Of a stretch of 37,381 nt of DNA, positions 1 through 37,381 are shown piece by piece (the first letter of the stretch is position 1; each line of letters begins with the position of its first letter). The notes under the pieces are model-generated. The model searched no databases. It was not told the DNA's origin and saw nothing but the letters and a program-made list of their open reading frames with translations. Source of the stretch: Chiloscyllium plagiosum (Eukaryota); contig NC_057718.1 in NCBI RefSeq assembly GCF_004010195.1, positions 100,728,272-100,765,652 of the forward strand. The letters are read 5' to 3'. The position numbers and the translations under genes are program-made.

Positions 1-193
1 ACTCTCTCCCCACCCCTACCCTCCTCTAGCTTATCTCTCCATGCTTCAGGCTCTCTGCCTTTATTCCTGATGAAGGGCTTTTGCCCGAAACGTCGATTTT
101 GCCTGTCCTCGGATGCTGCCTGAATTGCTGTGCTCTTCCAGCACCACTAATCCAGAATCTGGTTTCCAGCATCTGCAGTCATTGTTTTTACCT
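1..193 (+). mobile_element. Penelope-like element 3' end/pLTR, family A
   Basis: Same sequence recurs at 1132, 19448, 35553 and 37252; carries a hammerhead core. Confidence 0.7.
65..96 (+). ncRNA. Minimal type I hammerhead ribozyme (family A)
   Basis: TC-CTGATGA-A-GGGC TTTT GCCC-GAAAC-GTC-GA: all core nucleotides, stem II 4 bp, palindromic ACGT stem III, predicted cleavage after C94. Confidence 0.75.
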
Positions 194-291
194 ACAAATA
201 ATACTTGTAAAGTGTGGACATTCTTTGTAAAGTTTGGTACCAGAAATAGACACCATTCTGGTCCTAGCCAGTGACTTACTATAATTATAAT

Positions 292-498
292 GTGGAGGTG
301 CCAGTGTTGGACTAGGGTGGACAAAGTTTAAAAATCACACAACATCAAGTTATATTTCAACAAGTGTATTTGAAAGTACAAGCTTTCGGAGTTACCTGAG
401 TTGTCTAACTAGTTATCTGACGAAGGAGCAGTGCTCCAAAGCTTGTACTTTCAAATAAACCTGTTGAACTGTAACTCGGGGTTGCGTGATTTTTAACT
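292..498. mobile_element. Fold-back PLE remnant, family B
   Basis: Inverted arms ~325-390 and ~433-498; degenerate hammerhead CTGACGA..AAAG at 417-445. Confidence 0.7.
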
Positions 499-1131
499 AT
501 AAATATTGAGTTAGAAATGATTGTACTAATTTTAAAATCATCCTTTTCATCTTGCCACATTCAACGCATTGTCTATACCCCCATCCCCTTCCCAGGCTTC
601 ACCCCTGCTAGCATTGATCCATCTTGTTTATATAGCCTCTCCTTAGTCATCTAATCAAAGTGCAACACAAAACACTTATCTGCATTACATTTAATTTGCC
701 ATTTGTCTGCCTGTTTTGCCACTCTTAAATCAGTCAGTGAGAAAACATGACAGAGTCAACTAAATATTTCAATGTACCGGACTGTCGTGGTAGTGTTTTA
801 ACTGCTGCTAACAAACTGCTAATTGTGGAAAGAGTACATGCCTTAAAGCTCTGTGACTGCAGCTTAAATAACTAACAACTGCAGTTGTTCGGCAACAAGT
901 TTGCATCTGCAGTTCCTTCCATGTTCACACATTATGTAGAGAAAAGCTGCTTCTGTTAAGAAACCTCCATGCAGATTGCAACACCTGTCCTCTTAGCTGG
1001 GAGGAACAGTGCCAGCAATAGGCACCAGTTTGATGTGAAATCAACAAATAGACCCAAAGTATTTAAAAATAAACATAGACAGGTTTGGTTAAAATTGCTC
1101 CCTATCATGAAACTGACTCAACTAATAGAAG

Positions 1132-1222
1132 CCCTGAAGAATGGCTTATGCCCGAAACGTCGATTCTCCTGTTCCCTGGATGCTACCTGACCTGCTGCGC
1201 TTTTCCAGCAACACATTTTCAG
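1132..1222 (+). mobile_element. PLE family A fragment with hammerhead core
   Basis: CTGAAGA-AT-GGC TTAT GCC-C-GAAACGTC; flanked by ctaatag direct repeat (1122-1128, 1225-1231). Confidence 0.7.
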
Positions 1223-1369
1223 CGCTAATAGTAAAGTAAGTCAGGGTGCGAAACCGAAGCTGTCAACCTACAAATGTTTTATGAATTAAAACCGTCCCCA
1301 TTGTTTTCATTTTTCTCTTTATCTTGCTTGCTTGTTTTGTTAATATTTGATAATCACCATAAGAAGAAG

Positions 1370-1870
1370 TAGAAGCAGGTCCTTGGATCTTGAAGCCTGT
1401 TGTGCCATCCATTGAGATCAGGGCAGAACTTGTGCTGAACTCCACTTTTCTGCATCATTCATCTCCCTCATTCCTTTAGTATTTAAAAGTCTGTCAATCT
1501 TTCCTTAAAAACTGAGCATTCACAACTTTCAAAGATTCAGAACCCTTCTAAGTGAAGAAATTTCTTATCTCCATCTGAAATGGCTGTCCCTTTTTCCAGA
1601 AACTGACCCATAGTTCAAGACTGACCAGTTTGAGTGCAGTACCTTCTCAGTATTTACCCAACCAAACTCTGAGAATTTCAGATGTTTCAATGAGGTTATC
1701 TTTATTATTCCAAAACAGAAGGAATATAGCTCAGTCTACTCAAGCTTTCCATTTAGGATAATGCCTTCATCCCAGGACCAACTCTGTTGAATCTTTGTTG
1801 CACTGTCTTTTGGGTGGGTATATAACTTAGGAAACTAAAACTGTACACAGTGCTCCCAAGTGAGGTCAAA
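1370..1870 (-). mobile_element. Degraded CR1-type LINE 3' end
   Basis: Reverse complement resembles the CR1 3' regions at 13325 and 24620. Confidence 0.55.
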
Positions 1871-3960: not shown

Positions 3961-4080
3961 CTAGACATGTCTGTAGGCCATCAGTACAGCCAGGAGTAAA
4001 GTTAAAATCATTATCAGAAAAAGATCCCAATGAGGCCATAGCAATCGATCCAGACTTGTGTGTTTCCATACTGCACTGAG
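3961..4080 (-). CDS. SEL1L2: SEL1L2 terminal coding exon: LSAVWKHTSLDRLLWPHWDLFLIMILTLLLAVLMAYRHV*
   Basis: Acceptor tttgcag; PHWDLF followed by a hydrophobic TM segment and TAG stop at 3961-3963. Confidence 0.92.
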   Translation of the reverse strand, partial: LSAVWKHTSLDRLLWPHWDLFLIMILTLLLAVLMAYRHV

Positions 4081-4148
4081 CTGCAAAGATAAAGGTTAAC
4101 ACCTTTATCAACACCTTTCTATTAATCCAATGTTTCTAATCAAGTAGT

Positions 4149-4173
4149 TTTTTTTCTCCCCCCCCCCCCCCCC
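4149..4173. repeat. T run followed by a long poly-C run
   Basis: Direct reading. Confidence 0.85.
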
Positions 4174-4669
4174 TTAACTGAATCCTCTCAATTTAACTCT
4201 TGCTCCTGAAAGTACGGCACTATTGCTGAAAGTATACCCTTGTTAAAGCTTTCATGAACAATCTACCCAAATAAACACCAAAATCTATGCATTCTTCAAA
4301 ACAGAGATTTAGATATATAAAATCTTTTCTGGGTACATTTTCAATGCTACAACAGACTGCAGTTTATAAAGTACTCCTTTGACTGCAAAGTGGTTTGAGA
4401 CATCTGATGATCATTGCTATATAAATGGGTATTTCTCTTTAATGTGTTGTTTTAGTCTTAGTGGTGGTTCAGGCTTCAGCGACCTGAATCATATTTCCTA
4501 AAATTCCTCCGACTGTTTCCTATTTTTAAAAAATTACTCAAAAACCTTTTAGAGATAAGCAAATGTAACAGGAATTTTGCCAACTATGTTGCTCCAACCC
4601 TCCCCCTCCCCCACCTACCTATTTCCATCACATGGCACCTCAGGACTTTTTTCACATAAAGAAATGCTA

Positions 4670-4852
<183 letters not shown>

Positions 4853-5855
4853 TTAGGTGTTGCAATGTTTGTTTGACTTATCAGTGAGGATAGATGAAAG
4901 AAATGTGACCTTCTCAATCCTGTAAAGAGGTCATCTTTTGAGATTACATTTACAAACTAGTTCCAGAACCAAGAAAGATAAAGGGGAACAGGATCAATCC
5001 AGATCAAATTCTGTATTGATGGCAGGAAATGTTTGTTCAGCTACAGTATTCACATGTAGAATGGAAGAAGTGAAGATGAAAGGCTTTGGAATCTTTGAAG
5101 ACGTTGGGTCCTTTAATTGGCCAGGAACGCTGGTGTAAAACGCTGGAAGAAAAAACTTCTGTCCTTATCATCCCAACCTTGTCAAAACAGTGACATTCTC
5201 CGAACTAAACTGATTTTTAAAAATGGGCTTGAGCAGAGTTTTAAAATTTTACATCGATTAATAATACTGGATGCTAATGACTGTTATTCTATATGAAAGA
5301 TATACTTCTAGCAGCTGTATAAAGAGGAAGGAACCGTCATGACACTACAAAGATCCAAAACACCTTTACAATATCTTATTGTCACTGTTTTGAATCCAGG
5401 CTTATCATTGGAACAAACAGCACGATTGATGAGAATAGAAAGGCAAGGACATGGTTTTGTCCCACGTGAAATATTTCTAATTTCTGGCTCAGGTTTTTTG
5501 AATTGGGTGAGTATTAAAGAGTGCCAAATTCAAGCATTAGCTAGTGTAATTTAAACACATGCCTGTTCCAAAAGCCTAAGTATACGCTGAAGAAGAGTTA
5601 AAGCAAGAAAGAGGCCAAACAGCCCATCAATTCCATCCTAAAAACTTCCCCTTTCCCACTTAAGTTGCACTGCATCCTACACAACAACAAAAACAGCCTG
5701 GCATTTCTGTTGGAACATTGTCACCTCAAGCACTGCAATGGTTTGAGGTGATCCATCATTCATCTACTCAAGTCAAGTAGCTAACACCAATAAATTCAAC
5801 ACTGGCAGTCCATATGTGCGCTGAATAATGTTTTAAAAGTCATATGATTTTGGAG

Positions 5856-6069
5856 TTAAAAATCACACAACACCAGGTTATAGTCCAACAGATTTAATTG
5901 GAAGCACTAGCTTTCGGAGCACTGCTCCTTCATCAGCTTCATCACAACCACATGATGAAGGAACAGCGCTCTGAAAGCTAGTGCTTCCAATTAAACCTGT
6001 TGGACTATAACCTGGTGTTGTGTGATTTTTAACTTTATACACCCCAGTCCAACACCGGCATCTCCAAAT
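5856..6069. mobile_element. Fold-back PLE mini-element, family B, with 13-bp TSD
   Basis: ~80-bp inverted arms, each with a hammerhead core; TATGATTTTGGAG at 5843-5855 and 6070-6082. Confidence 0.8.
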
Positions 6070-6258
6070 TATGATTTTGGAGGTCATTTAACCCCATCAA
6101 AAGAGTTCTTAACCTTCAAATGTAGCCCCTCACATCCCTTAATGTTTTGTGCAACAGTTTTGAAGATGTGATATTTTCTTATACAGTGACTATTTTTAAG
6201 GTGCTTGTTACATGAATAACTTTAAGGTCCTTTGAAAAATGATGTATATTTTCATTCA

Positions 6259-6549
<291 letters not shown>

Positions 6550-7828
6550 TCACTTATAAGCTTTGAAGATTTCCTTACCAGAACTGGAGAACTTGGGTCT
6601 CCTATGCCTCTTCCTTACAACATTCAGTCAACTCAAAATCTCTCAAGTTTAGGAAAGGGAGGGGAGGTGGGATAGCAACAATTCCAAGCCTGGAAGGTGG
6701 GCGTGGAAGAGAAGCTTACCCTCTAGGGAGCAGACCAAGCAAGCAAGAGTTCACATTGCAACTTGGGAAACTTTTAAAATTTGTGTACTAACAAAGCGAG
6801 AAATCAAATGACCTGCAATGAGCAAACCGTGAAATAAAAAAAAGTGCTAGAGAAACTCTGCAGGTCTTCTCACATCTGTGGAGAGAAAACAGTTAACGTT
6901 TTGAGTTCAATATGACTTTAGAATTGAAAGGGACTTGAAAATCATGGGGTTTTTTTCTGCACTCCACTGATACTGCTCCTATGCAGGGAGATAGTGTACA
7001 TCGCCATTATAATTGATGAACCTGATGGACTGGGCTGTAGGAAGGGGAAATTGGATACATCCAGCTAAGCACAAAAGTTATATGGAGATGAACAAGGCTG
7101 AGAAGTGACTGGTGAGTGCTTTTGAAATATGTACCTTTGCTAACAGTTACACTATAATCATGCTTGGACTTTTGGGAGAAATTGAAGACCATTAACTAAT
7201 GCCAATGTTGTCTTATTAAATGGTTATATTTTTTAATACAACCTTAGAAAAAGCTACCAAAACCTTCAGAATTGATCACACTAAGCACATGTTGGTCACA
7301 TTGCTAACAACAAGAAGCTAAATATGCTTGTGGAATGACTATCATGTTATCATAGCAAGCAAACCCCTAAGCAATTTTTGATTATCCATGTGCTTTGCTC
7401 TGTTGCAAAATTTGCCTCTGTGACTGTCACCTCCCACTGAAACCCAGCATCGTTTGTGGAGAGAATTGATAACAAAATTGTATCACTCCAAAGCCAGCCA
7501 AATAGGGAAATCTAAACAGTCTTACTTAACTTCAAAGCTATTCAAATAATAATTATATGCTACATATATACTCTACATATAAAATGTGCTTTTGAACAGT
7601 CGTTTAGGGAAATAGATCACTTGAGTCCAGGCCAACATAAATTACTCAAGTTGTTTTTTGTAAACCATCATTTCCTGATATATATACCTTTTATACAAAC
7701 ACCCATAAAGAGGACTAATAATCCACTGGTGCCTTGAGTCTTTGTGAGATACCATGTCCAAAACTAACAGTTGTATTTTCAGATAAACTAGTAGTTTTCC
7801 GCCATGTACCTTATATATACATCTGTAC

Positions 7829-7903
7829 CTTGAGCTGCAGCTCGGTTCCAGTATATCAGAGCCATATGGTAGCAATCAATCTGTGAGAGGAGTGCAGACT
7901 GCT
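7829..7903 (-). CDS. SEL1L2: SEL1L2 coding exon (75 nt): (E)QSALLSQIDCYHMALIYWNRAAAQ
   Basis: Acceptor taatag, donor GTACA; WNRAA.Q motif. Confidence 0.93.
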
Positions 7904-7991
7904 CTATTAAAACAACAGTACATTTCACAGATTTTACTTTTTTTAAAAGAAAAAATGCAAAGATAGAATTTTTGGAGAGATTATGTGTTCA

Positions 7992-8171
<180 letters not shown>

Positions 8172-9218
8172 CTAAACATGGAAGACATTGATACATTAAA
8201 GGTCAAAAGTAAATAGTCAACTGAAGGATAAGGTTATAATTTTGGAAATAAAAACCAAATTTAATTCAATTTTTAAAAATTGAATATTGAAAAGAGTGAT
8301 GTGTTGTCAAAGCTGCTGTTTTCAGCAGACCATGTCAAATTTCAAATGATTGCAGCAATTTATACTGCAGGAGTTGGCAATATCCTCAGAAGGGCCGAGG
8401 TGTTGTCATTGCAAAAAGGAACTTCAGGCTTCCCAAATATCTGGTAATTTAATGGAGATGAAAGGTTTTAACATATCCTTTGCATGTGCATATGAATTTT
8501 TGTCACTCCTAGCAAGCAAAAATGAACCATGTTATGAGCTCAACAGATTATCTTAAATTGGATTAGCACACTCTTAAATTATTTTAAATTCGCACACTCG
8601 TAATTGTTTCGCAATTGTCCAATTCTGGAATCATCTCTAACTAGATGTTTACATGCATGGTTTTGTTGAGTACAGTCTTAACTCCTCCTATCACAAACAA
8701 TTGAAGGAACAAGCTCTTTGATTTGATCAGCCAGTATACACCCAATGTACTGGGCATCTCACCTGCACTTTGTTCAACTGTGAGAACACCATCTTGGACT
8801 CATGGCAGCATTCTGTTAGTGGAAATGCCAACTGAATAACCACTGCATAGTAGCAGTATGAAAAGGCTCCTTTAACTTGTTCAAATTTTTGAGATACTCT
8901 GCCAATGCAGGATAATTTAAGGTAGACCGAATACTTTTTTCAGATTAAAAAATGTTAGCCTGTGGCCTGTTTGTGAGTTTGCAGGATACACAATGATAAG
9001 GTTAGCCACTGTCCTGCCAGGCAGCTTTATTTCTGCATCAAGCTTTCAAGGTGAACAAATGACTAGGCCTCAATTTACAGGATTGCCGATGAAGCTAATC
9101 TTATAGCACATGGAACTATAGGAATCCCAATATATGGATGGATTCAAAGTTTGGGTGAAGATTTGTAGCTCGGGTGCTCGTTGTTGTGGTTCTGTTTGCC
9201 GAGCTGGAAATTTTTGTT

Positions 9219-9258
9219 GCAAACGTTTCGCCCCCTGTCTAGGTGACATCCTCAGTGC
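9219..9258 (-). ncRNA. Minimal type I hammerhead ribozyme (family C, GUU variant)
   Basis: GCA-CTGAGGA-T-GTC..GGC-GAAAC-GTT-TGC on the minus strand. Confidence 0.7.
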
Positions 9259-10064
9259 TTAGGAGCCTCCTGTGAAGCGCTTCTGTGGTGTTTCCTCCGG
9301 CATTTATAGTGGCCTGCCCCGAGACAGCTCAAACAGTTCCGACAGGCATAATGAGCAAAAACCCTTTATGCTTATTAGTCCAAACAGGGCTATGAGGAGG
9401 GGGATGGGGTGGAAGGTAATCCCCTGGAAAGGGCTAGTTTTCACCATATTGGTCAAAATTTTCCAAGGATTGGCAATTCCATGCAGATTTTTGACAGCTC
9501 TGTATTTCTGAGAAAAGATTCTGCTGAAGGCTGATATGTTATTGCACTTACAACCGCACATTCCAACATCTAACACTGTTTAAGTCCCAAGCCACAAAGC
9601 TTTGCATACCCCTGCCTAAGTCACTGCCATTCTTTCTCCAGTTCCCATGGTAGCCCAGGACCTTATCTTTGTGGGATCATGACATGCAGGAATACATTGC
9701 ATAGGTGTTCTTCTTCCTCTTTTTGCAGTTCTGGTGTACTGCAGTGTGTTGTGGCCCTTTTGAATAGTGTCTTGATGCAACTTCTTTTGTGTGTGTTGGG
9801 TTGGTTGCTTTCGTAGTTTAGGACTTGGTCTGTGTGTGTGGCTTTACTGTATTACTATTATAGGACAAGCCAAACAGAGAACAGCCAGGGAATTCCTAGA
9901 GGCATGGCACTCATCCACAGATTCAATAAACAAGCACATCGACCTGGACCCAATATACCGACCACTGCAGCGGACAGCTGGAACTGACAACCGGAAGCAG
10001 CAGATTCAAACCACTACAAATGCCGGAGGAAAGATCACAGAAGCGCTTCACAGGAGGCTCCCAA

Positions 10065-10104
10065 GCACTGAGGATGTCACCTAGACAGGGGACGAAACGT
10101 CTGC
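10065..10104 (+). ncRNA. Minimal type I hammerhead ribozyme (family C)
   Basis: GCA-CTGAGGA-T-GTC A CCT AGAC AGG G GAC-GAAAC-GTC-TGC: stem I GCA/TGC, extended stem II, GUC cleavage triplet. Confidence 0.8.
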
Positions 10105-10742
10105 AACACAAATTCCCAGCTCGGCGAACAGAACCACAACAATAAAGAGATTCTTCAAATACAATCATGGTTACGTAGATGGATCAGTAAAACAAATCGT
10201 TAATGTTAACACCCAGCATACCACTCTCTTAATAGAAGCAGCTCCTAAAACGAAAGATATGTCTAGGTACTGATTTCATCCTCAAACACAATAAAAGCAA
10301 GTTTTATTTCAAATAATTAAATTAAATAATTTTGGTTTTATGCCAAGTGTATCACACGAAAGAAATCTCTGCAGTGAATATTAAAATGTCTTGGAGGTTT
10401 TAACGCTGGATACTTGTAAAGGTTGAGCATTGTCTGTCCATCTCTATAAGTAAACCTTCCATTCTGACCAAATGCTTCTCTTATGAAAATATGACACTGA
10501 ACTCAACATGACACAATTCTTATTTATTGAACTTAACCTTTTACAGTGCCACATATTATAAAACAGGAAAAAAATGTATTGATAAATAAACAAATACACA
10601 GTTCAATGGTATATTGATAACACTGTGATTACAAATTCTCTTGATCTTAAACTGTACTAGACTTGAAATGTTAGCTTGCTCTCTCACCATGGATGCTGTC
10701 TGATCTGCCGTGATATCAGCATTGGTTGTTTTCAGTAAAGAT

Positions 10743-10990
10743 AGCATGGTAGCTTAGTGATTAGCACTGCCACCTCACAGTGCCAAGCGCCTGTCCTTGA
10801 AAATTTGCATATTCCCCCATATCAATGTGGGTTTCCTCCCAAAGTCCAACAATGTACAAGCTAGGTGGGTTAGCCATGGGAAATGCAGAGTTTTAGGGTA
10901 GGGATTGGGTCTGGGTGGGATGCTGTTCAGAGAGTTGGTGTGGACCCGATGGGCCAAATGGCCTGCTTCTACACTGAAGGGATTCTATTC
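10743..10990 (+). mobile_element. HE1/V-SINE-type tRNA-derived SINE, degraded
   Basis: Similar to the copies at 21923 and 22215. Confidence 0.75.
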
Positions 10991-11518
10991 CTTTGTGTGC
11001 AAACATGCCACATTAAACTAATGCCAAAATGCTTTTTGTTGACGGAGCAGCTGCATGCGTGTGGTTAAATGAAACAGTAGAGTTGTTGACTTCTTCTATA
11101 TCTCCTCCAGCTTCTATTTGTGCAATACCATTATTACCAATTGCTTTCGAAGAAAACCCAGTACAAAAGCAATTTAAAAACTGTCTCTCTCTTTCTGAAG
11201 TACATTAAATAGTCCCAGGAATCCTGTGATTGGTTTCGGGACTCCTTCCTGAAAAATCACGCAATCTGTTCCAATTAATTTAAAACAATCCTGAGAGATG
11301 GATTCAACTTCAAGGACAAAGGTAGCCATTCGATAAACATTTCATCAAGGACAGAAATTCTTCATTTCAATGCCAGAAACATTTAAAGTATTCTGGCAAT
11401 ACCCGACTCCCAGTTACAATGATAAAACACTTCATTTTTGTTGCTGCCAATTACACACATAAGCCTTGCTTTATGATTTATCAGCTTAGCAACCGAGAGT
11501 TTTAAGTGGGTCTACTGA

Positions 11519-14789: not shown

Positions 14790-15002
<213 letters not shown>

Positions 15003-22482: not shown

Positions 22483-22550
22483 TTAAATCATTGCTTACTG
22501 CCCTCTATAGGGAGTCTGTAATATTGCATGGAAATCATGAATAATTTCAA

Positions 22551-25227: not shown

Positions 25228-25284
25228 CTCGAAGTCTTGTTCTATTCCTTTGCCTCCAGTTAGGTGAAGCTGACCAAGGCCAAC
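25228..25284 (-). CDS. SEL1L2: SEL1L2 coding exon (57 nt): VGLGQLHLTGGKGIEQDFE
   Basis: Acceptor cacag, donor GTAGG; VGLGQLHL motif. Confidence 0.95.
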
Positions 25285-26108: not shown

Positions 26109-27162
26109 CTGTTAGTGAGTAAAAAAAGAATTAACTTTTGCATCATCTAGTGTATCACACTATTGAAGGTATAATAGTATATTGTATGAGCTCTCATCCT
26201 CTTTGTAAACAAAGTAGATTTATTAAAAGGTATCAGAGAGCTAAAGCATTTGCATTACTTGTATTAACATTTAAAAGTGACAATTTGAATCATGCAAAAT
26301 TTAATTTGTATTGGAAATAACACAAGCTTAGGAAGATTGTCCATGTCAAGGAATAATTAGAAGTGAGATTTAGGACTAAAGTTAAGGGAGCACTTGAATT
26401 AATGTTTAGCTCCTCCCCTGATGTTTCAAAGCATTAATGAAAACAACAAACAAATATGGCTTTTATGATCCTGTTGCTCATATCCTAATTTATAAAAATG
26501 TCCTGTTCACTCATTGTACTTGTGTTTGCAGGCCTACATGGGCTCCCAGTAGGAACATGCTTTGAATTTAAAATTGTTGTCCTTTATTTTCATGTGCCTC
26601 CTTTGTTGTGATCCTCCTATTCTATGTAATTTTCTCCAATGATATTCTGGGCTAGGTTTGTCATTCCTTGTGAATTAATGACAGGTGTCTTTCCTTCATA
26701 TATGTATTTTGCAATTAAGAGAGTTCACTTTTAAGGACTCTGTGTTCTGTGTACAATGTTGTGACTCTTCCTGGTAGTTAGTGTGTTATGCGTCTGCAAA
26801 CTACATATACAGAAACCAGCTGGTTTTCTTTTTGTTGTAACTGCATCAGAACTTGTAATGTTTCATACTGTTATAATTGTTTATTTATTCATTCATAAAC
26901 TGGCTCTTGGAGGTAACCAATCCCTATGAGATTCTGAACACTCCCATTTTATTTCTTCATCTCTCTTTGATTTAGAGGCATGAGTGGATTACATCCCTAT
27001 CTGTTACCAATCGGTTCAGGTTAACATGTCGTCACAATGAATTCATTCTAGTTGCAAAAGTTTAGGAACACCAAAAAGCAAATTACTGAGTCTGAAAGTT
27101 AGTTCAATGCAGTAACGTTTGGATAGCTTCTGCCTCTTTAAGAACAGCCAACATTTTTCGTA

Positions 27163-27280
27163 AAACAAAAACAAAAATTGCTGGAAAAGCTGAGAGCAGA
27201 TACTGCCAGACCTGCTGAGCTTTTCCAGTCATTTTTGTTTCTCTATCTGATGTACAGCATCAGTGGCTCTTATGATTTTT
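27163..27280. mobile_element. Short fold-back PLE-related remnant
   Basis: aacaaaaattgctggaaaagct / agcttttccagtcatttttgtt inverted pair, related to family A. Confidence 0.5.
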
Positions 27281-27318
27281 ATATAACAATTTTCCTATGG
27301 AAGTTCAAAGATGATTAC

Positions 27319-27400
27319 CATATTTCGCTGCGGTTCTGTAATGAATGAGGGCTGCTTCACAATGCTGAGGCAGATTAATGCCATTAAGGTACCTGTAACC
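27319..27400 (-). CDS. SEL1L2: SEL1L2 coding exon (82 nt): GYRYLNGINLPQHCEAALIHYRTAAKY
   Basis: Acceptor caacag, donor GTAAT; GYRY..C..AL..Y motif. Confidence 0.95.
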
Positions 27401-27507
27401 CTGTTGAAAGAGAAGTCATTGCATTTAGTGCTGTGGTTTCAAAATTATTGGCTATTATGATTCAATGCAACCAAACATTATTTAAATTGTACAAATTTAG
27501 CACCTAC

Positions 27508-27567
27508 CAAAATCATATGTGCCACGAAGTTTCCACCCAATGCAGCAAATGTATAATACACCAGAGC
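27508..27567 (-). CDS. SEL1L2: SEL1L2 coding exon (60 nt): ALVYYTFAALGGNFVAHMIL
   Basis: Acceptor tttcag, donor GTAGG; near-identical to SEL1L [20 protein letters not shown]. Confidence 0.95.
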
Positions 27568-27674
27568 CTGAAAAATATTTATAGCAAGATTTCTGCTCAG
27601 TATATACGTTTATAAAATCTAGCATCAATTCCAGCAAAGTAATCCCATTGCACTTAATATGACATAGTGAGATT

Positions 27675-27920
27675 CATAATGAATAGGTTAAGGAGACAGC
27701 TATTTCGAACTAAGATGAAGAAAAATTTCTTCATTCAGTGGGCTCTGAATCTTTGGAATTTTCTGGCCTGTGGATTTTCAGAGGATGATGACATTTAAAG
27801 GGGAGATGGAGAGACTTTTAGACTCTAAGAGAATCAAGGGCTTTGTGGATTTGGTCAGAAAGTGAATGTGAGTTTTACAGTAAAGCAGGCTTGAGGGGGT
27901 AAATGGCCTACTTTTATTGA
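27675..27920 (+). mobile_element. Degraded CR1 3' end
   Basis: aatttcttcattcag..gaatctttggaatt..aatggcctact. Confidence 0.6.
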
Positions 27921-28394
27921 TGACCATTTGTTATCATAATAGCCAACTCACAGTTATTTACAGTGACAGTATCACATGCTTGTCAATACCATTGTGTCAC
28001 TTGTCATGATGGACTACAAAATAATTTACAATCTGATCAGGGATCCGCCACAAATTAAGTAATGAACCCAAAGGACCATTATGAACAGGGAAAACCTAAA
28101 GTTGTTAAATCTGATATCGCAAAGTTTTGCAACGATCTATTTAAACAGTGAATTATTAAGTATAAGTTTTGAAACAGAAAATTATTTTTCTGTACCATCT
28201 GCTGTAGTGAGTGGGAGAACTCCCTAAATCAGATAGAGACCAGAAAAAATACTTTCTTATAACAAGAATGTTACATCATGCAATACACAATGGATTATAA
28301 TATAATTAATCTCCTATGACAAAATTTACAGAAAACCTTTTGCTCTTTCTTCACACTATTTCCTGCCCAATGACCAATTCCTTCAACATTTTTG

Positions 28395-28610
28395 GTCCTC
28401 CTTATTTTGTGTCTCTGTCTTGACATCTTTTTCCCTTATCTCTCCCTCTTTCTCTATTCCCCACTCTCTCCTGTTTCTCTCTTGCCCCAGCTGTTTCTTT
28501 CCCTCTCTTTGTCTTTATCTGTCTCTTGCTCCCTGAGCCCGTCCTTACCTCCTTCTCCCCTTGTCTCAAACTGTCCCTCATCTCTCACTGCCACGTCCTT
28601 CTCAATGTGA
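28395..28610. repeat. CT-rich low-complexity tract
   Basis: Direct reading. Confidence 0.7.
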
Positions 28611-29069
28611 TATATGTATCAAGCTGTCCAACTCATTTGTCATTTGCCTGCCTTACTCTTGCTGTGAGTCTTTGATATTTGAGGTAAAAAGTTAGCAGGG
28701 TTCACAGTATTAAAACTGTTTTCTCTCTGTGTGTCATGTATGTGCATGAGACAAATGTGTTTGCACAGGGACACAAATGTGATTCTAGGAAAAAAATGCA
28801 CATTTGTGCTAAAATATGGAACACTGCCTTCTGAAGCTGCCGTGCCTGAATATTTTTAAAAGGGATATTTCTTCATTGAAGCTTCTGTCCTGCATGATGC
28901 TTGTAATAAAGCTTTTCTAACTTCAGCTTGCTCTAAAATCATAGTAGTTATTGTTTCACAAGTCTCTATCCCCTCTATTTCCAATGCTTCAATGTGTCAC
29001 TCACACATGTTCTTTACTGATACACTCAATATCTATCTTATCATTTTGAAGGCCTTTGAAATGTAGTAA

Positions 29070-29900
29070 TCAAGCCGTTAAAGAAACATCAACCACATGG
29101 GCAAGCAAGATTGTCAAGCTGGGAGGAAGAATGATTTCAGGACTGGAAGAGGAGGAAGCAATGGATAGCAGTGAGAATGTGAAAGAAATGTGGTTTGGAA
29201 AAGAATGAAAATAGGGATATAATTGAGAATATTGAATATTTTGGAATGCTTTCAAGTGGAATTGAAATCCTGGGCCAGGGAGGATTTTGTGGATGGGGTG
29301 GGTTAAACTGAAACATGCTTGTATTTGTAAAGTGCATTGCAAATACTGGAATCATAGAATGTGCAGTGGAAGCAGCTGGTGGATGTGAGAAAAAGAGGAG
29401 GAAGAATAGGATCATGGAGGAAGTCTGGAGATCAGAAAGTCTCAGGAGATATTCAATAATAAGGGGGACACAAACCTGAAGGCAGTGAGTTATGCTGGGT
29501 GTTGAGCACGTGGGATAAATACCAGAGTTAGGGGAAGGGGGAATATGAGCCAGAGGTACTGAAGGGAAAGTTGGAATGGCCAAGCAGATTAACATAGACT
29601 AAAATGGAGATTGGGAAAAACAAGTGTTGGAGAGCATAAGGAGTGGAAGAAAATGGATTTGGAAATTGACAAGGACAAAGATTAGGTTTCAGATCAAGCA
29701 CCCAGGTTTCGAGTACTGATCCAGATCTAGAATGGCCACATTTGGGTATGGAGTATAGACAATAATAACCAGTGTCTATAGCTGAGGAAAAGCACAGGTG
29801 TCAGACAGCTAAAAAGCTGTTGAGGTATTTTGGGACAACAAAGAGCCAGAGACACTAGAAGGGAATGAAAACAATGAAAGAGATGTTGGATTCCGCTTGG
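29070..29900 (-). mobile_element. Old purine-rich LINE (L2-like) remnant
   Basis: Strong strand asymmetry; P/S/L-rich degenerate minus-strand ORFs. Confidence 0.4.
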
Positions 29901-30291
29901 AGCAGCTGTGTTCTGGTGGGACAGAAATTCTAACCATCCCTTTGATTCTGTCATCATTCCAAACAACTTTGGTTCGGGGTCATTACTTCAGCATCAAAAA
30001 TTACCTAAGAGTTCCCTTCTCAAAGATGGGATCCAACAGTGGCAGTAGGAATACTTCAGCAACACAAAACATCAAAAGAATCTAAAGGGGCACCAGAACC
30101 ACGAACAAGGCCCTGGTATGTCTCCACATGCTATAATCTGCATGTAACTTTCTATCATCTGTGACAACTTGTCTTTATCCCATAGTGTCCCAATTTAAAT
30201 ACCCCCCAAATTTTCTTTTTATCCTTTCTGAGTTGACACCATTTCTCTTCTATTTAAATACTATTCAATTACTAGAAGCTTCTTTTGCTCT

Positions 30292-30351
30292 CAAGACATT
30301 CTGGTTCCCCAAGACATTCTGGTTCCCCAAGACATTCTGGTTCCCCAAGAC
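30292..30351 (+). repeat. Perfect 18-bp tandem repeat (CAAGACATTCTGGTTCCC) x3.3
   Basis: Direct reading. Confidence 0.95.
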
Positions 30352-30409
30352 TGTTTTTCAGATTTAAACAGGCCCAATCTGCCCTCTCTAAAAGATCAAT
30401 TCATAAGTT

Positions 30410-30640
30410 CAGGGAGTTCTTCCTAAGGTCCTGGCCAATATTTATCAACCAACCATATCAATCAATATCCAAACTAGATTATCCGGACATTTACATATTA
30501 CTGTTTGTGGAAGTTGTCATGAGCAAACTTGCCTGTTACATCTCCTATATTAAAACACTGAATACACTTCAAGTATACTTAATTCTCTGTGAAGCACTTT
30601 GAAATATCCTGTAAAGATGTGATGGAAATGTTTCTTTTCT
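30410..30640 (+). mobile_element. DeuSINE (SacSINE1/AmnSINE1-like) fragment
   Basis: gtcctggccaatatttat..agattatc..ctgtttgtgg..tacacttcaa..gtgaagcacttt resembles the Deu domain and tail. Confidence 0.6.
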
Positions 30641-31375
30641 TGCTCCCAGTACTGAGTTCCGAGCTGTATGTTAATGGCAGAGTTTGTTGGCACTGAAACC
30701 ATGGGGGCAACTGCACCTTTGTGCTGTCTCAGAAACACCCATGTACATCGTTCCGGACCCTTGACATGGTCCCAATAGCCCCGCCACTCTGCACCAGCCC
30801 CCTCCCCTTCTCCCCAACTGTGCTTGAATCGCCACATCTCTATCCTCAGCCCTCCCCTTTACCACCCACTACCCCAAAACCACCCCCCTACCCCTGTTCC
30901 AATGCCACACACCCCACCCCCTCCCAATCCACAGTCTCCAGCGAACTCCTGTCAAGTATACCTGCAATGACCCTGAGGCCAAATTTACTTGTTATAGAAT
31001 CATTGGCTGTGAGGAAGCCTATTCCAATAATCTCAACCTTTGATCAATAACCTTTTTTTAATGTAAATCATACATGTTACTCGTGGCTTCTCCTACCAAA
31101 GCAGATATTGTTGCTTCTAACCTCCCACTAGAAATAGAAAGTAGAGGGACCCAACAAAGGCTGATATGGCTTGAATGTTGGATCTTGATGATTATTAGGA
31201 GCAATATCTGAATGAAATGAAATATTCTCAATTCATCTGTCATGCTCAATATTTGCTCTTAATACATTGAATGATGTCTTGCAACATCATGTCACTGTCA
31301 ATGACCCCCATCAGCAGATTTAGTATTTTCTCTGATCTAATTATTCATAAAATTACACCAGCTACATCTTCTTAC

Positions 31376-31429
31376 CTTAGGTTGGTTAAATTCCACACCA
31401 ATACCGGTGGCATGCATGAACCCTAATGC
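31376..31429 (-). CDS. SEL1L2: SEL1L2 coding exon (54 nt): ALGFMHATGIGVEFNQPK
   Basis: Acceptor ttgttag, donor GTAAG; matches ALGFLYASGLGV motif. Confidence 0.92.
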
Positions 31430-32781
31430 CTAACAAAAGCCCAAAAAGAAAACACTTGTTTAAAATTATTCACAGAATTTCGGTACACTATTTCAACTTA
31501 AGCATTCACAAACAGTTTGATTTCCAATGTGTTGCTAAATTATGTGTTTAACTTTTTGAAAATAATGTTTGTCATAATAGATAATAAGAAGTAGATAAGA
31601 TACATCTCAAATGTTAATTGGAAAAATTAAAACATTGAAATATTTCCTCAAAGTATTATACCATTTTCTGAGAAAAATGTATGTTTTGAACAATCTGCCG
31701 CATTACAGTGTGGTGCTGCACAACATGGGCTTGGGGTTAGGCCCTCCACACAATGAGTGTCTACACTGAGAGTGGGATAACTGTCACAAAGGTCCATTGA
31801 GAAAAAGTCTTTCAGGCAAAGTGCACCCAAGCTATGAAAAGCCCATCGGGATGATAAATGTTAACTGTAATTGTGAATGTACTGATTAATGTACAGTATG
31901 GGAAGAAACTTATTTTGCTTGCAGCTTATGCATTGTCACATATCAAACCTCACAAATATAATGGGATATGTTTTTGGAAAACAAAATTTGCACTTCTCTA
32001 ATTCTGACTTCTTGAACATCACTGATTTTAATTGTTCCATCATTTGGTGGCTGTGCCTTCAGCTGCTTGGGCCCTAACCTCTGGAATTCCCTCCATGTGG
32101 CTCTCCACCTCTCTCTTCTCCTTTAAGATGTTGCTTAAAACTAAATATTTAATCCAACCATGTGCCCCAATATCTCTTTAAGTGGTTTATTCTACATTTT
32201 GTTTCATACTGACCGTACGAAGCATCTTGAGACATTTTACGAAGTTAAACACATTAAATAAACACACATTGTTTTTGTTAAACAAAGGTGAACCTTTCCC
32301 TCATTGGGAGAAAGGATAAAATAATTTTCAAAGGCAATTCAACATTTGCTTACTCTTCTTGAATACCATCTGGTAGTCGGTTTCAGGACATCACTTCTCA
32401 ACCATCGTTTTTCTTGGCTAGGAATACTGTACACATATTGATGCTTATGGGGTGAATAATTTTTCAAATGAGGTGGGAACATAACACAAGCCCAAGTTAA
32501 ATACTGAAAAAGTTACACATGGGCTGGATAATATTAAATTGCAACCTTATACTGTTGGGAATATTCCTAGCCCTTTGTTTTAAACTAAATCTTTTTAATG
32601 CAGCAACATCTGCTTTCCAATTCAAAATAATTTTCATGAGCAATATTTGACAAAACCATTCCCAAGATCTTAAGAAATGGTAGCCCTTCAAATAGTAGTT
32701 CTGTTTTAGCAGGTCAGCACAAACGAGCAACTATGTTTTATCATTTTTTTCCCATGCTAATTCCATTTTGAAGGAGCTCAC

Positions 32782-32944
32782 AGTTTGGGCCTTATGAGAG
32801 CCATTTTCTGCCAGGGCTTCAAAGAGATCTTTAGCTGCCGTGACGTTCTGGGGCAGTTGGTCACCAAATAATAAGGCAAAGGCTATTCGCTCCATGGCTT
32901 TCCTACTTCCGAAATCAGCTGCTTTCACCAGTAGTTTATAACCT
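32782..32944 (-). CDS. SEL1L2: SEL1L2 coding exon (163 nt): GYKLLVKAADFGSRKAMERIAFALLFGDQLPQNVTAAKDLFEALAENGSHKAQT
   Basis: Acceptor tttttaagtag, donor GTGAG; Sel1 repeat similar to SEL1L ALLFGDYLPQN. Confidence 0.92.
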
Positions 32945-33893
32945 CTACTTAAAAACAGGAAATATAAAGTGTTAGAAGCAGAAAAATTCAAACGTCTCCT
33001 GATATTATTGAATATAAGCCTCTGCTATATGAATACTATTGGAGGCTACATGTTGAAGAGATAAGAATGTCTGTGGACTGACCATCAGCAGAACCAACAT
33101 CACCATGGAGAAGACTGTCGTGAGAAGAAATTTAACTGTTTAACAACTTGGCTAGTAACATAAGCCTTCAATGATGTAGAACCAATTGACAGCATATGGC
33201 ACTGCATTTGTGAAATAGCTCTTTTCTTGGATAATAAATAATGTAAGGGAACTCAACTGTTCAGACCTTCTGTTCAGAGGCCTGTCAATCCTGTACCTTC
33301 GCAGCTCCTTCCAATCCTCTGCTGCAAATGCAGCAGAGACTGCTATTCCAAAGTGTGGCTTTTGAGCCACACCAGATAATGCTTAACACAAAGCTTACAT
33401 CATGATGCAAACCACTGTTTCATGAGACACAAAGCTGTCAATGATCAATGAATTGCAATACACATGAGGAGTCAGGACCAAATGTTGTCTTCTGCTGAAG
33501 CAGGGTGATTGAAAGGAGGATAATTGGACCAGGTTGCACAGTTGTACTAGTGCCCATTTTAAGCTGTCCTTATTTTTCTGACATAGTTCTGTGATCTCTT
33601 TTATTAATCATCAGCTGGCAGAAAGATGACAAATTAGAAAACAGAGAAATAGGGTTGGTTGGAATACTACAGCTTTGATGCAGTGCAGATGAGCAGCTAC
33701 AAGACATAAAACTGATGAGGTGCTGTAAAATGACAGAATAGCATATCAAGGTTATTTAGGCAGTCTCCTTTATAAATGTTGTCACAGGAATTTGTATTGG
33801 GGAAAAGCTGAAAAAAAAGGTGTGACAGAAACATGGCAGAAGGAGAAGTAAGTTTAGGCAGTATGCAGATGTTTGAAGATGTAAGATTTTTTT

Positions 33894-35431
33894 ATATAGA
33901 TATTTTTATTAGAAATTTAACATTTTTACAAGTTTACAAAAATAAACAAAACTCTCAAGTACAAACATTGATATACAATTAAATCTTAAATATATAATAA
34001 CCAAAATTTAACAAAAGAAAAATACCGAGAAAAAAAACAAAACTCAACTAACTACTAATCTAACCTACAACTAACCAGAGTGTATATTTAAGTCTCTTAC
34101 ATTGTTCAAACAAGAGAAAGAGAAAAAAAACAACAGATAACACAGAAATTGGGTAGTGAGATACATGCTCGGAATGTGTTAACATCAAATGTAACAAACC
34201 CGTATTCATGCGGGATTCCTCCTCCAAGGGGCCCTGGACCAGCCAGGTTCGTAATCTCAATTAAATAAAAGCCCTTGTTAGGATAGCCGAAATATCTGTA
34301 TACATATAATTCAAGAAGGGCTGCCATATTTTATGAAATAATTTGGTCTTTCGGTGCACCATATTTGTAAGGAAGTCAAGGGGAATACATTCCATAATTA
34401 ATCTGTGCCAATTTGAAAGTCCAGGGGGGCCCTCAGCCACCCAGTTTCCCAAAATATTTTTCCTTGCACAGAAAGAGAGAATAGAAAATAATCTCTTCCC
34501 ATGCATATCCAGGGAGGGTAAGTTCCAAAAGGCCAAAAGGAGAGATACAGGGTCCACTTTAATTTCCGTTCCTAAAATTTCTGTCAGGGTACTTGTTACT
34601 TTAGTCCAATATCTATGGATCTTATGACAGGTCCATAGGCAATGTACAAGAGTGCCCACCTCTATTTTACATTTGGGACACATTGGAGATGCTCCTGCCT
34701 TAAATTTTGCCAATCGATCCGGTGCTAAATGGGCCCTATGAATTATCTTCAGCTGGATAGCCTGAGTTCTTCTGGCGTTTTCCCAAATGTCATTCCACGT
34801 TTCGATAGAGATTTCTAGTCCCAAATCCTGATCCCATGTTTTAAGCAGATTGTCCATACTTCATCATGTAGTAAATGATAAATAGTACTGACGGAAGATA
34901 CCCCCATTGGTCATAGTACTCCACATTCTCTATCTGATTTATAAAAACTATCTAATAATGTAGTCTTCTTCTGTATATAATCTCGAATTTAGAAGTATCG
35001 AAAGAGGTCTCCATTAGGTAATCCGAATTTCTGACGCAGCTGTCCAAAAGACATCAGGACCCCATCTTTAAATAGGTCCCCTAGACATGAGATACCCCTG
35101 GATCTCCAGTGTTTAAAAGTGGCATCTGTAAACTCTGGTTGGAATCCCCTGCTCCCACTATCGGCGCATAGGGGGATGTTTTATGTGAGTTGCCTTCATT
35201 TTGGCATTATATTCCAAGCTTTAATTGTGTTTAGTATTATAGGGTTTTTACAGTGATCCATAATGATTTTCCTCTTGTCTGAAAATAAAAGGTTAATAAG
35301 TGGGCACTTTACTTGAGAAGCCTCGATATCCAGCCAGATTGATTGCAGATCATACAAGACCCAATCAGCTATGTAACTTAATAGGGAACTTAACTGATAT
35401 TTCCTAAAATCTGGGAAGTCCAATCCTCCCC
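33894..35431 (-). mobile_element. 5'-truncated LINE-1 with ORF2 C-terminus, 3' UTR and 14-bp TSD
   Basis: GGLDFPDFRKYQL; CCHC knuckle CPKCKIEVGTLVHCLWTC; AATAAA near the 3' end; TSD TGTAAGATTTTTTT at 33880-33893 and 35432-35445. Confidence 0.9.
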
Positions 35432-35552
35432 TGTAAGATTTTTTTGAAGGACTCATTTCAGGTTTGTGCCAAAGTAAGGTACCAGACTGACACGGCACAG
35501 GTACACTTTCTCAAATCTGGCCACTGCGAAAGCTGGTATTGTCTGAAAACTG

Positions 35553-35741
35553 TGTCAAGATTAGAGTGGTGCTGGAAAAGCACAGCAGGTCAGGCAGCAT
35601 CCGAGGAGCAGGAAAAATGATGATTCAGGCAGGAACCCTTCATCAGGAATGGCTCCTGACCTTGCTGCTTGACCTGCTGTGTTTTCTAGCATCACTCTAA
35701 TCTTGGCTCTGATCTCCAGATCTGCAATCTTCACTTTTGCC
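35553..35741. mobile_element. Fold-back PLE mini-element, family A, with 15-bp TSD
   Basis: Inverted arms ~35556-35598 and ~35663-35705; ATTGTCTGAAAACTG at 35538-35552 and 35742-35756; decayed hammerhead at ~35617-35646. Confidence 0.8.
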
Positions 35742-37089
35742 ATTGTCTGAAAACTGGACATTCTTTAATTGATCCTTTCTCATTTTAAACTGGTGTGCTA
35801 ATGAACTAGGGGGTGCATGGAAGGGCTATTAAATCCATTGTTTGTAAACTGACTTAATATCAGTGACAACATGAACATTGACCTAAAGTGCTTCGCAATT
35901 GTAACAGTTAGTTTTCTGCTGTGTTCCCTATTCACCAGATTAAATGTTCTAATTTTTTTCAGAAAATCCCAGACGGTTCCAAAATCCACCACAATCCAAA
36001 TTCAAGGCTGCCAGGTTTGAGAGAATGTACTGGTACAGTTGTGTAAATAAGATTGGGCCTTAACTTTCAGATTTTACAATATTAAAACCTCCAAATTGAG
36101 TACAGAATTCCAATATTTCTTAATTAACATATTACATCTACTCAACTAATATTTAATATTTCCTAAATCCACAGAAGGTTAACGAATGTAAAATGTTTTG
36201 TCAGTCTGTGATTTATCTGTCCTTATCAATAATATGTGAGAAAAAAGTAAGACACTTAACATTAATAGAATAATTGAAATGTTTGCTGGAATTTAGTTCC
36301 TTGAGTGAAGTGGTGACTGGTGTCCCAATTAACTTATGATGAAGGATATAGAAAATATGCTACCACCACAAAATTACTCAAGATCAAGGATCCTTGTTGA
36401 AGAGATTTAGAAGTTCATTTAGAAAACTATTCTGAAAAACAACACAGAAATGATCTGCATGTGTAACTGATAATGTACACGTTAATCAATACATGTTTAT
36501 AAAGGTTACTTTTTATTACAAAATATTGAAACATGTTAAAATAAAAAATAAAACTTACACAAGAAGAAAGGATATTGTTATTTGTTTTATAACCTGGCAA
36601 TGCTTTCAGATTTAATTCAAAAACTCTAAATTAATTTTTTAAAAATCATTCACAAAAGGCACGACAAAGATGCAATTTTTACTTTCAGACCCAGTGAGGT
36701 GCGATTTTAGTGAGATTACAGATTCTAATACCAATTCCCTTTTTCGGAGGTCCAGAATTGAGCTCATATTGACTGCAGAGGTTTTAAGCTGTGCTCATTG
36801 AGGCACTAGAATTTCAATAACACTGACAGTTCTCCCATGCCAGTGGCCAGAGATTGCCTGAGATGTGCCCTGATTGCCATAGTAACATGGCTGGTGACTG
36901 TGCATTTGCCAGCAACACTCTCAACAGCTCATTCCAAACCTGCAAACTCCACCATCTCGAATAGTAAGGTCAGCAAATGTGTGGAAACACTATCACCTGC
37001 AAGTTACCCTCCAAGCCGTGTTTACCAACCTGAAGTGGAAATACATCGCCATTGCTTTGAAATCCTGGAACTTGCAAGTTAACAGCATG

Positions 37090-37250
37090 GGGCAGCATGA
37101 TGGCTCAGTGGTTAGCAATGCTGCTTCACAGCACCAGGGACTTGGGTTTGATTCCAGTCTGTGTGGAGTTTGCATGCTCTCCCTGTGTCTCCCTGTCTCC
37201 CGGTGCTCCGGTATCCTCCCACAATCCAAAGATGTGCAATTCAGGTGAAT
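37090..37250 (+). mobile_element. HE1/V-SINE 5' part, interrupted by a PLE
   Basis: tggctcagtggttagc A box; V-domain. Confidence 0.8.
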
Positions 37251-37251
37251 T

Positions 37252-37381
37252 CAAGATTAGACTGGTGCTGGAAAAGCATAGCAGGTCAGGCAGCATCTCA
37301 GGAGTAGGAAAATTGATGTTTTGGGCAGGAGCCCTTCATCAGGAATGAGGCTGAGAGCATCCGGTATGAAGAGCTAAATGG
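37252..37381 (-). mobile_element. PLE family A 3' end (hammerhead G12 mutated)
   Basis: Minus CTGATGAAGGGCTCCTGCCCAAAACATC. Confidence 0.7.

What the first reader, a model, noticed from the sequence alone, without database searches (positions are those of the whole stretch)
65..37345. Three distinct families of minimal hammerhead ribozymes scattered through the introns
Seen: about a dozen repeats carry the hammerhead core CUGANGA-stem II-GAAA-..UH. Family A reads TC CTGATGA A GGGC TTTT GCCC GAAAC GTC GA (65-96; also 1134, 19546, 35617, 37312). Family B reads CAC CTGATGA A GGAGC AGT GCTCC GAAAG CTA GTG (5902, 5949, 22592, 23276, 417, 17036). Family C reads GCA CTGAGGA T GTC..GAC GAAAC GTC TGC (10065, 9219). 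Stems I and II differ completely between families but still pair. Stem III is reduced to a palindrome that covaries (ACGU vs AGCU), and all three have one extra nucleotide after CUGANGA. Known: Penelope-like retroelements carry minimal hammerheads in their pLTRs that are thought to cleave as dimers. Inference: several PLE lineages, including an AGCU/CUA variant, spread these ribozymes at high density in this genome; these particular families may be uncharacterised.
Basis: partly seen in the sequence, partly recalled or inferred. Interest (0 to 1): 0.75.

Follow-up and report, generated by a model that had tools for sequence, protein, structure and literature searches.

The report
Shark Penelope stubs carrying minimal hammerheads
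These repeats are the already described minimal hammerhead motif at the ends of Penelope-like jumping genes, present about 200,000 times in this likely shark genome, mostly as short mirror-image stubs that break off just upstream of the motif, likely because copying runs off the start of the element's RNA.

Summary
All 13 listed sites are real copies of three repeat families, but only 3 keep a complete minimal hammerhead. Six lie on the minus strand, three lie past the 3' end of the SEL1L-like host gene, and the 13 come from about 10 insertions. Each family ends a Penelope-like element (PLE): A and B Neptune-like, C Penelope/Poseidon-like by motif. The extra nucleotide, the palindromic stem III (AGCU included), opposite-strand pairs, tail and target duplication are all in print, so this is a new member of a known kind. 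Two things stand out. The genome holds 207,562 intact-core motifs against 294 in the control. In a 1.35-Mb sample about half of all arms are head-to-head pairs with a tail on exactly one arm (80 of 86), and 5' ends pile up just upstream of the core (A 109 of 215, B 38 of 109), with no clear excess at the cut site. Likely reading: two internally primed cDNAs run off the transcript's start, mostly from uncut RNA. Cleavage and the start site were not shown. The scan found this same system before on other shark DNA, including this genome.

The parts
1..193 (+). Family A (Neptune-like PLE) pLTR end with tail; intact minimal hammerhead, C3 at 67, predicted cut after 94; stem I only 2 bp; abuts an assembly gap on the left
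   Evidence: 39 other places at 98-100% identity listed
285..498 (.). Family B head-to-head pair: minus arm with tail (391 to 285, no CUGANGA), plus arm from 417 (G12 lost); 11-bp target duplication with one mismatch
1133..1224 (+). Family A solo stub starting at the core, no tail, G10.1>U; 9-bp target duplication with one mismatch
5854..6072 (.). Family B head-to-head pair: minus arm C3 5936 (no tail), plus arm C3 5952 (C3>A, tail); target duplication of about 13-15 bp
9143..9312 (-). Family C arm with tail, C3 9255, passes the descriptor (U at position 17)
9690..9852 (-). Inverted internal ORF fragments of the family C element, joined to the plus arm
   Evidence: 94-97% to L049 and L043
9853..10142 (+). 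Family C (Penelope/Poseidon-like): end of the endonuclease domain, then intact hammerhead, C3 10068, predicted cut after 10101; no tail
17033..17104 (+). Family B stub truncated inside stem II (no CUGANGA); 9-bp target duplication with one mismatch
19449..19680 (-). Family A older subfamily: pyrimidine-rich pLTR, decayed hammerhead (C3 19574), tail; left end exact, right end approximate
22555..23398 (.). Family B insertion: long minus arm (endonuclease end at 23049-23177, pLTR, C3 22623 with C11.1>A) and inverted plus arm 23200-23398 (C3 23279 with A15.1>G, tail); 11-bp target duplication with one mismatch
35555..35741 (.). Family A head-to-head pair: minus arm C3 35646 (decayed), short plus arm with tail; perfect 15-bp target duplication
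37249..37377 (-). Family A arm, C3 37342 (G12>A); abuts an assembly gap beyond which a plus-strand family A arm with tail follows
27162..27242 (.).
   Evidence: (I24)
3964..33024 (-). Host gene, SEL1L-like: exons matching SEL1L residues 206-263 (within 32734-33024), 624-682 (within 6259-6549), 678-726 (within 4670-4852), 731-763 (within 3964-4095); likely 3' end near 2801

Best explanation
The motifs are minimal type I hammerheads in the terminal repeats (pLTRs) of at least three endonuclease-bearing Penelope-like retrotransposon families, and most genomic copies are short, decayed, often head-to-head stubs that likely arise when the element's enzyme primes at two internal sites about 80 and 120 bases past the core and likely runs off the transcript's 5' end just upstream of the core. 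Shown: link to reverse transcriptase and GIY-YIG sequence, two discrete 3' ends per family, tail on one arm of a pair, target duplications, pile-up of 5' ends, read-through of the cut site. Inferred: that both target strands prime one cDNA each and the two are joined head to head; that the pile-up marks a transcription start (family A reads YCA/TTA-TTCC there, which fits the recalled initiator consensus YYANWYY with A at -4); that templates are mostly uncut. The ribozyme is predicted to work only as a dimer through the ACGU or AGCU palindrome, likely with protein help, in tandem element transcripts rather than in host introns. Identity about 0.93; run-off at a start site about 0.5.
For: PLE link: L044 has motif (2375), ATG at the tail end (2494), RT (PF00078, E 2.5e-5, below the curated cut-off), a CX4CX2C linker, endonuclease-like ORF, second motif (5450). 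L159 runs gap-free from a GIY-YIG ORF (PF01541, E 2.9e-5, above cut-off) into motif A. L048, L049 and L043 carry a YVDD RT piece and endonuclease next to motif C. Counts: 160,196 ACGU and 47,366 AGCU motifs against 243 and 51 reversed controls; non-palindromic ACCU 1,803 against 198. Core positions differ from the majority less than downstream flank: A 36/1368 vs 542/6876, B 36/687 vs 287/3651, C 3/144 vs 61/447. Pairs: 54 in A and 32 in B; tail on exactly one arm in 49 and 31; target duplication with 10 or more matches in 40 of 54 and 18 of 32, null 0.6% and 1.9%. 5' ends: A 109 of 215 in -10..+4, B 38 of 109 in -12..+3; only 7 of 41 and 7 of 31 survivors end in the next 60 nt upstream; uniform simulated cuts put 60 of 300 and 64 of 300 there; 45 of the A ends near the core are solo arms, 19 with a duplication (null 3%), so joining between arms is not the cause. 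Precedent: two internal RT starts, extension of both strands, uncut RNA as main template, protein-assisted cleavage (PMC11167929, parts 1-2 of 4); internal promoter in the pLTR upstream of the hammerhead in D. virilis (PMC2377424 section 15).
Against: No RNA start or end was seen at -4 or at the cut site: 1,749 reads of a poly(A) single-cell run on L159 gave one pile, at an unrelated place, and none on window 1-16000; that library is a weak test. Family B has no clear initiator and its ends spread over -12 to +3. Family C is inconclusive (16 arms; the 4 ends at -2 look like diverged subfamilies). The pile-up windows were chosen after seeing the data. In D. virilis the start lies 125 nt before the core, not beside it. 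The dimeric hammerhead fold is 1.1-9.5 kcal/mol less stable than two monomer minimum-energy folds in 6 of 6 copies tested (the model ignores core contacts, and one stem II pair of B was left out). No Pfam endonuclease hit for B or C, no intact full-length ORF was recovered, and no tree against reference clades was built.
Confidence: 0.72

Rival explanations
1. Same elements, but the 5' ends pile up because the reverse transcriptase pauses or falls off on leaving the folded or protein-bound ribozyme, or on meeting the pyrimidine tract upstream, not because the RNA starts there.
For: The pile-up matches the 5' edge of the fold in A and B, and the end rate already rises inside the core (A +5..+14: 24 of 174). 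No RNA start was seen. B lacks a clear initiator.
Against: Structural stalls usually fall at the 3' foot of a hairpin (recalled), which here would be near +33, where ends are few. Copies that pass -10 rarely stop in the next 60 nt, as expected of two template classes.
Confidence: 0.3
2. The stubs are non-autonomous SINE- or MITE-like elements that keep an internal promoter and are themselves re-copied, so their number reflects their own spread.
For: Stubs would begin at the start site and hold both priming sites; Penelope promoters are internal. Some junction types recur among the first 50 listed genome-wide. Five loci share an identical 321-nt tandem unit.
Against: Junction coordinates in the 86 pairs are highly varied, and the recurrent ones sit on AAGC/GCTT or AGCT microhomology. 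The identical tandem units all border assembly gaps and may be fill artefacts.
Confidence: 0.15
3. One reading: these are working ribozyme families that cleave as dimers where they sit, including in host introns.
For: 57 of 126 A, 18 of 60 B and 11 of 15 C whole-core copies keep core and palindrome, so very many potential partners exist in nuclear RNA for trans pairing.
Against: 10 of 13 window copies are damaged; only 15 of 201 whole-core copies have a same-strand, same-family partner within 1 kb; strand counts are equal genome-wide; published activity is low even as dimers or needs the element's protein.
Confidence: 0.08
4. The ribozyme cuts, the RNA is re-joined into a circle, and copies read through the cut site because the template is circular (model of Cervera and de la Pena).
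For: Read-through of the cut site is the rule and a circle would allow it; a few arms end at or just after the cut.
Against: A circle has no end just upstream of the core, so it does not explain the main pile-up. Ends at the cut are not clearly in excess: A 4 vs 2.0 expected, B 2 vs 1.3.
Confidence: 0.1

Closest known systems
[quoted passage not shown]
   Same: Core, one unpaired base before stem II, G10.1-C11.1, palindromic 15.2-16.2 (CG, UA and GC types), several families per genome, mostly single truncated copies, pairs 100-700 bp apart on opposite strands. Family C is close in sequence to their Clonorchis motifs, family A to their Acropora and Nematostella motifs.
   Different: No cartilaginous fish in the files searched (file 1 not searchable). 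Count here 207,562 by a sequence pattern without a pairing check, against about 4,000 (coelacanth) and 9,000 (Xenopus) by their descriptor. AGCU with A17 not in their Fig. S3.
Insertion structure of endonuclease-positive PLEs (Arkhipova et al. 2013, PMC3846280, passages; Craig et al. 2021, PMC8557442, passages)
   Same: 5' truncation, adjacent inverted copy head to head, 30-40 bp tail at one end, 8-10 bp target duplication, assembly gaps at such sites.
   Different: Here the typical unit is about 190-200 bp with junctions concentrated at the 5' edge of the hammerhead; I saw no such pile-up in the passages read or in searches. Duplications run 10-17 bp.
Anolis Poseidon element PAc (Frangieh et al. 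2024, PMC11167929, parts 1-2 of 4)
   Same: Two internal RT starts that define the tail, extension of both strands, uncut RNA as dominant template, no RNA ends at the cut site in public reads.
   Different: In PAc the ORF starts inside the ribozyme; in family B the ATG sits at the tail end. The paper does not report one start site per arm or the 5' ends of genomic copies in the parts read.
Non-LTR retrozymes (PMC7229834, passages; bioRxiv 10.64898/2026.07.22.740005, parts 1-3 of 5)
   Same: Type I hammerheads in PLE-related repeats, very high copy number (up to 120,000 in axolotl, section title), reported in one chondrichthyan.
   Different: Retrozymes are head-to-tail tandem arrays; the window copies are solo or inverted and 186 of 201 sampled whole-core copies have no same-strand partner within 1 kb. 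The preprint's supplements were not seen and may list these shark families.

Membership tests
Metazoan PLE minimal hammerhead | CUGANGA, stem II, GAAA, UH core with stem I | tested here: met
   103 descriptor hits in 1.35 Mb vs 6-12 in shuffles; 3 of 13 window copies complete
Metazoan PLE minimal hammerhead | One unpaired base between positions 9 and 10.1 | tested here: met
   89 of 103 hits, not required by the descriptor
Metazoan PLE minimal hammerhead | Palindromic 15.2-16.2, no stem III loop | tested here: met
   93 of 103 have a 2-nt insert; 68 CG or GC, 21 CA or TG (CpG decay); genome counts
Metazoan PLE minimal hammerhead | Located in the pLTR of a PLE | tested here: met
   L044 both ends, L159, L049
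Metazoan PLE minimal hammerhead | Self-cleavage as a dimer | not testable with these tools
   Folding energies do not favour the dimer fold; RNA reads uninformative
Endonuclease-positive PLE | One ORF with RT followed by C-terminal GIY-YIG | tested here: met
   Order seen in frameshifted L044 and in pieces for A and C; Pfam GIY-YIG only for A, RVT_1 weak for B and C
Endonuclease-positive PLE | Direct pLTRs, inverted truncated copy, tail on one end, target duplication | tested here: met
   L044; 80 of 86 pairs with one tail; 58 of 86 with duplication
Neptune clade (families A, B) | CX2-5CXXC linker between RT and endonuclease (PMC8557442 passage) | tested here: met
   CX4CX2C read by eye in L149, L159 and L044 translations
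Penelope/Poseidon clade (family C) | No zinc-finger-like linker | tested here: met
   None seen in L043 and L049 translations
Neptune or Penelope/Poseidon clade | Placement on an RT tree with reference elements | not tested
Non-LTR retrozyme | Head-to-tail tandem units each with a hammerhead | tested here: not met
   None in the window; 15 of 201 sampled copies have a same-strand partner within 1 kb
Rfam hammerhead families | Match to a covariance model | tested here: not met
   No hammerhead among 9 matches at E<=5

The most novel reading that the evidence does not exclude
Shark PLE transcripts begin with the hammerhead itself. Because the enzyme primes only 80-120 bases further in, each ordinary transposition event yields a two-armed stub, one cDNA from each priming site, copied from uncut RNA, possibly from an RNA pair held by the ribozyme's palindrome. 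In family B, polyadenylation at +58 removes both priming sites from the 3' pLTR, so full copies need read-through. This has filled the genome with about half a million whole-core copies, a denser load of hammerhead motifs than any figure I found in print, and makes their junctions a large natural record of the unknown late steps of PLE integration.
Probability: 0.4. Interest if true: 0.58.

Novelty: new member of a known kind. Interest (0 to 1): 0.32.

Why it matters
The motif and its home are known, so the finding as written is ordinary. What it adds is scale and a test bed. The role of hammerheads in endonuclease-positive PLEs is called unclear in PMC8557442, and the steps after priming are unvalidated in PMC11167929. 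Tens of thousands of two-armed stubs give genomic support for one priming site per target strand and for uncut templates, and they predict a start site that one cap-mapping experiment can check. The AGCU/CUA family, with 47,366 motifs, is a natural variant worth one cleavage assay.

Tried and rejected
Rfam scan: 9 weak matches, none a hammerhead; the MIR6024 and P14 matches at 27147-27288 are an inverted PLE stub. Long open frames of 808-933 aa reported for family C were runs of N in assembly gaps; no intact ORF was recovered. A protein search meant to fetch a SEL1L homologue returned repeat-rich Sel1 proteins and was not used; solved structures served instead. Excess of 5' ends at the cut site: an apparent cluster at +28..+33 was largely internal deletions and microhomology joins on inspection; the 2-nt test was not significant; 316 and 276 near-cut junctions exist genome-wide, of which I read the first 50 each by eye without a formal count. 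The figure '0 intact B copies' was an artefact of a mutated reference and was redone (18 of 60). No RNA holder was listed on record for L159; run X21 laid 0 reads. The 100% identity of young family A copies suggests recent activity, but 18 of the 20 loci fetched hold an assembly gap and may be homogenised; the two gap-free loci are also identical over 192-193 nt. Lunse et al. (PMC5785218) is not held; I know it only through a review passage (PMC6765202), and it may already contain the CUA variant or shark examples. The host is called a likely shark from recalled repeat types and the scan's earlier notes; this was not tested.


Full report
Setting. The window is G000:C9:100728272-100765652 in a 3.56-Gb assembly and is bounded by assembly gaps on both sides. 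It holds most of a SEL1L-like gene on the minus strand: exon peptides match SEL1L residues 206-263, 624-682, 678-726 and 731-763. Contigs from three RNA-guessed runs end at 2801, next to an AATAAA on the gene strand. The animal is likely a shark; that rests on recalled repeat types and is untested.

Observation. All 13 listed sites are copies of three families. A descriptor asking for the core, stem II of 3 bp or more, stem I of 2 bp or more and UH finds 3 in the window (67 +, 10068 +, 9255 -) against 0.25 in 100 shuffles. The other ten carry core changes or lack a part. Six are on the minus strand. The sites make about ten insertions, six of eight tested with 9-15 bp target duplications. Three (67, 417, 1134) lie beyond the gene's 3' end, eight are intronic, two are unresolved. 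Rfam finds no hammerhead.

Is it a hammerhead-shaped family? In 140 stretches of 10 kb at fixed offsets (1,351,902 non-N bases) the descriptor gave 103 hits against 6-12 in four shuffles. Features it did not ask for came out: 89 have one extra base after CUGANGA, 93 have a 2-nt stem III insert, 68 of those CG or GC and 21 their CpG decay products. At least three further families appear. Genome-wide, a sequence pattern without a pairing check matches 160,196 times with ACGU and 47,366 times with AGCU (reversed controls 243 and 51); non-palindromic ACCU gives 1,803 against 198, and those listed are mostly point mutants of the same families. Homology finds 225 A, 110 B and 18 C arms in the sample, 200 covering the whole core, which extrapolates to about half a million. 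Stem I of A is mostly 2 bp, and the dimer fold is less stable than two monomer folds in 6 of 6 copies, so activity is doubtful without help.

What carries them. L044 is a degraded near-full family B element: motif at 2375, ATG at 2494 exactly at the tail end, RT, CX4CX2C linker, endonuclease-like frame, motif at 5450. L159 joins a Pfam GIY-YIG frame with the same linker type to motif A without a gap. L043, L048 and L049 join a YVDD RT piece and a linker-less endonuclease to motif C. By the linker criterion quoted in PMC8557442, A and B are Neptune-like and C Penelope/Poseidon-like; no tree was built. In the window, endonuclease ends precede the motif at 9853-10142 and 23049-23177.

Anatomy of the insertions. 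3' ends fall in two groups per family, about +76-81 and +111-126 in A, +81-86 and +116-120 in B, counted from C3. 108 of 225 A arms and 64 of 110 B arms form head-to-head pairs; exactly one arm has the tail in 49 of 54 and 31 of 32 pairs. Duplications with 10 or more matches flank 40 of 54 and 18 of 32 pairs, null 0.6% and 1.9%; median span 186 and 202 bp. So a pair is one insertion. 5' ends, after dropping 10 A, 1 B and 2 C arms with N or an edge upstream, pile up at -10..+4 in A (109 of 215, mode -4) and -12..+3 in B (38 of 109); of the survivors only 7 of 41 and 7 of 31 end in the next 60 nt. Simulated uniform cuts put 20-21% in these windows. The windows were chosen after seeing the data. 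C is inconclusive. Ends at the cut site show no clear excess (4 vs 2.0, 2 vs 1.3). Only 15 of 201 whole-core copies have a same-strand partner within 1 kb.

Mechanism. The simplest account joins two published facts: PLE enzymes start reverse transcription at two internal sites and extend both target strands, mostly on uncut RNA (PMC11167929), and Penelope has an internal promoter in its pLTR (PMC2377424). If the shark transcripts start just before the core, priming 80-120 nt inside gives cDNAs that run off there; one from each strand, joined head to head, gives the observed unit. Family A has an initiator-like sequence with A at -4 (consensus recalled; sequences). Family B has AATAAA or ATTAAA near +38 in 77 of 110 arms and 127 reads turn to poly(A) at window 6010, which is +58; these reads could come from a few host transcripts. 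The start site and any cleavage remain unshown: the one raw RNA run that laid reads gave no pile at -4 or at the cut and is a weak test. Rivals are a pause at the fold (0.3), self-spreading stubs (0.15), circular templates (0.1) and working intronic ribozymes (0.08).

Comparison with what is known. PMC4209133 describes this motif class, its extra base, its palindrome, several families per genome, single truncated copies, opposite-strand pairs and low dimer activity; its Fig. S3 has AGCU in five entries and motifs close to A and C. PMC3846280 and PMC8557442 describe the inverted copy, one-sided tail and duplication. A 2026 preprint reports hammerhead tandem repeats and PLEs in one chondrichthyan (supplements not seen). 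Searches for shark PLE hammerheads and for a 5' pile-up or twin priming in PLEs listed nothing on point; I saw only the listings, and the library lacks most subscription papers, Repbase and Lunse et al.. The scan's own notes, opened after my reading was set, report the same system in at least 23 genomes; they are not independent support.

Verdict. Real, correctly assigned to PLEs, overstated in intactness and novelty. New member of a known kind, interest 0.32. The start-site run-off reading, if true, would merit about 0.58.

Noticed in passing
window 6832-6909 (-), 10657-10736 (+), 27162-27242: Three more truncated stubs of other hammerhead-bearing families, all lacking CUGANGA; the last is an inverted pair that draws chance Rfam matches.
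   Followed up: partly
L142, L147, L150, L156, L157 (about 1180-1693 in element orientation): An identical 321-nt head-to-tail duplication of the family A end, with a shared core change in the upstream unit, next to a gap in all five loci: a retrozyme-like unit or an assembly fill.
   Followed up: partly
window 6010: 127 reads of run X20 turn to poly(A) 58 nt after C3 of family B, about 20 nt after an AATAAA or ATTAAA in the pLTR.
   Followed up: partly
L155:407-1693; L080:7094-7251; L137:8232-8450: PLE pieces of different families nested in or abutting each other, such as a B-type endonuclease end between two A arms, suggesting insertion into other PLEs or template switching.
   Followed up: no
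window 10738-10978, 21923-22469, 37089-37251: Copies of a SINE-like repeat (families D4-D7, D9, D10), recalled as a shark SINE; not tested.
   Followed up: no
window 34261-35510 (-) and 15445-15702 (+): LINE fragments: zf-RVT (E 5e-4) and a weak RVT_1 match (E 0.03).
   Followed up: no
L048:1673-5857 (-): LTR-retrotransposon-like pol frames interrupted by a family C insertion; observed only.
   Followed up: no
window 10060-10110: Family C's hammerhead is close in sequence to the Clonorchis motifs in Fig. S3 of PMC4209133: deep conservation or transfer between a fish parasite lineage and fishes is untested.
   Followed up: no
window 1 and 37381: Both window ends are assembly gaps inside family A elements, and 18 of 20 best loci for the young subfamily hold gaps, so PLE content is probably under-assembled.
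   Followed up: partly
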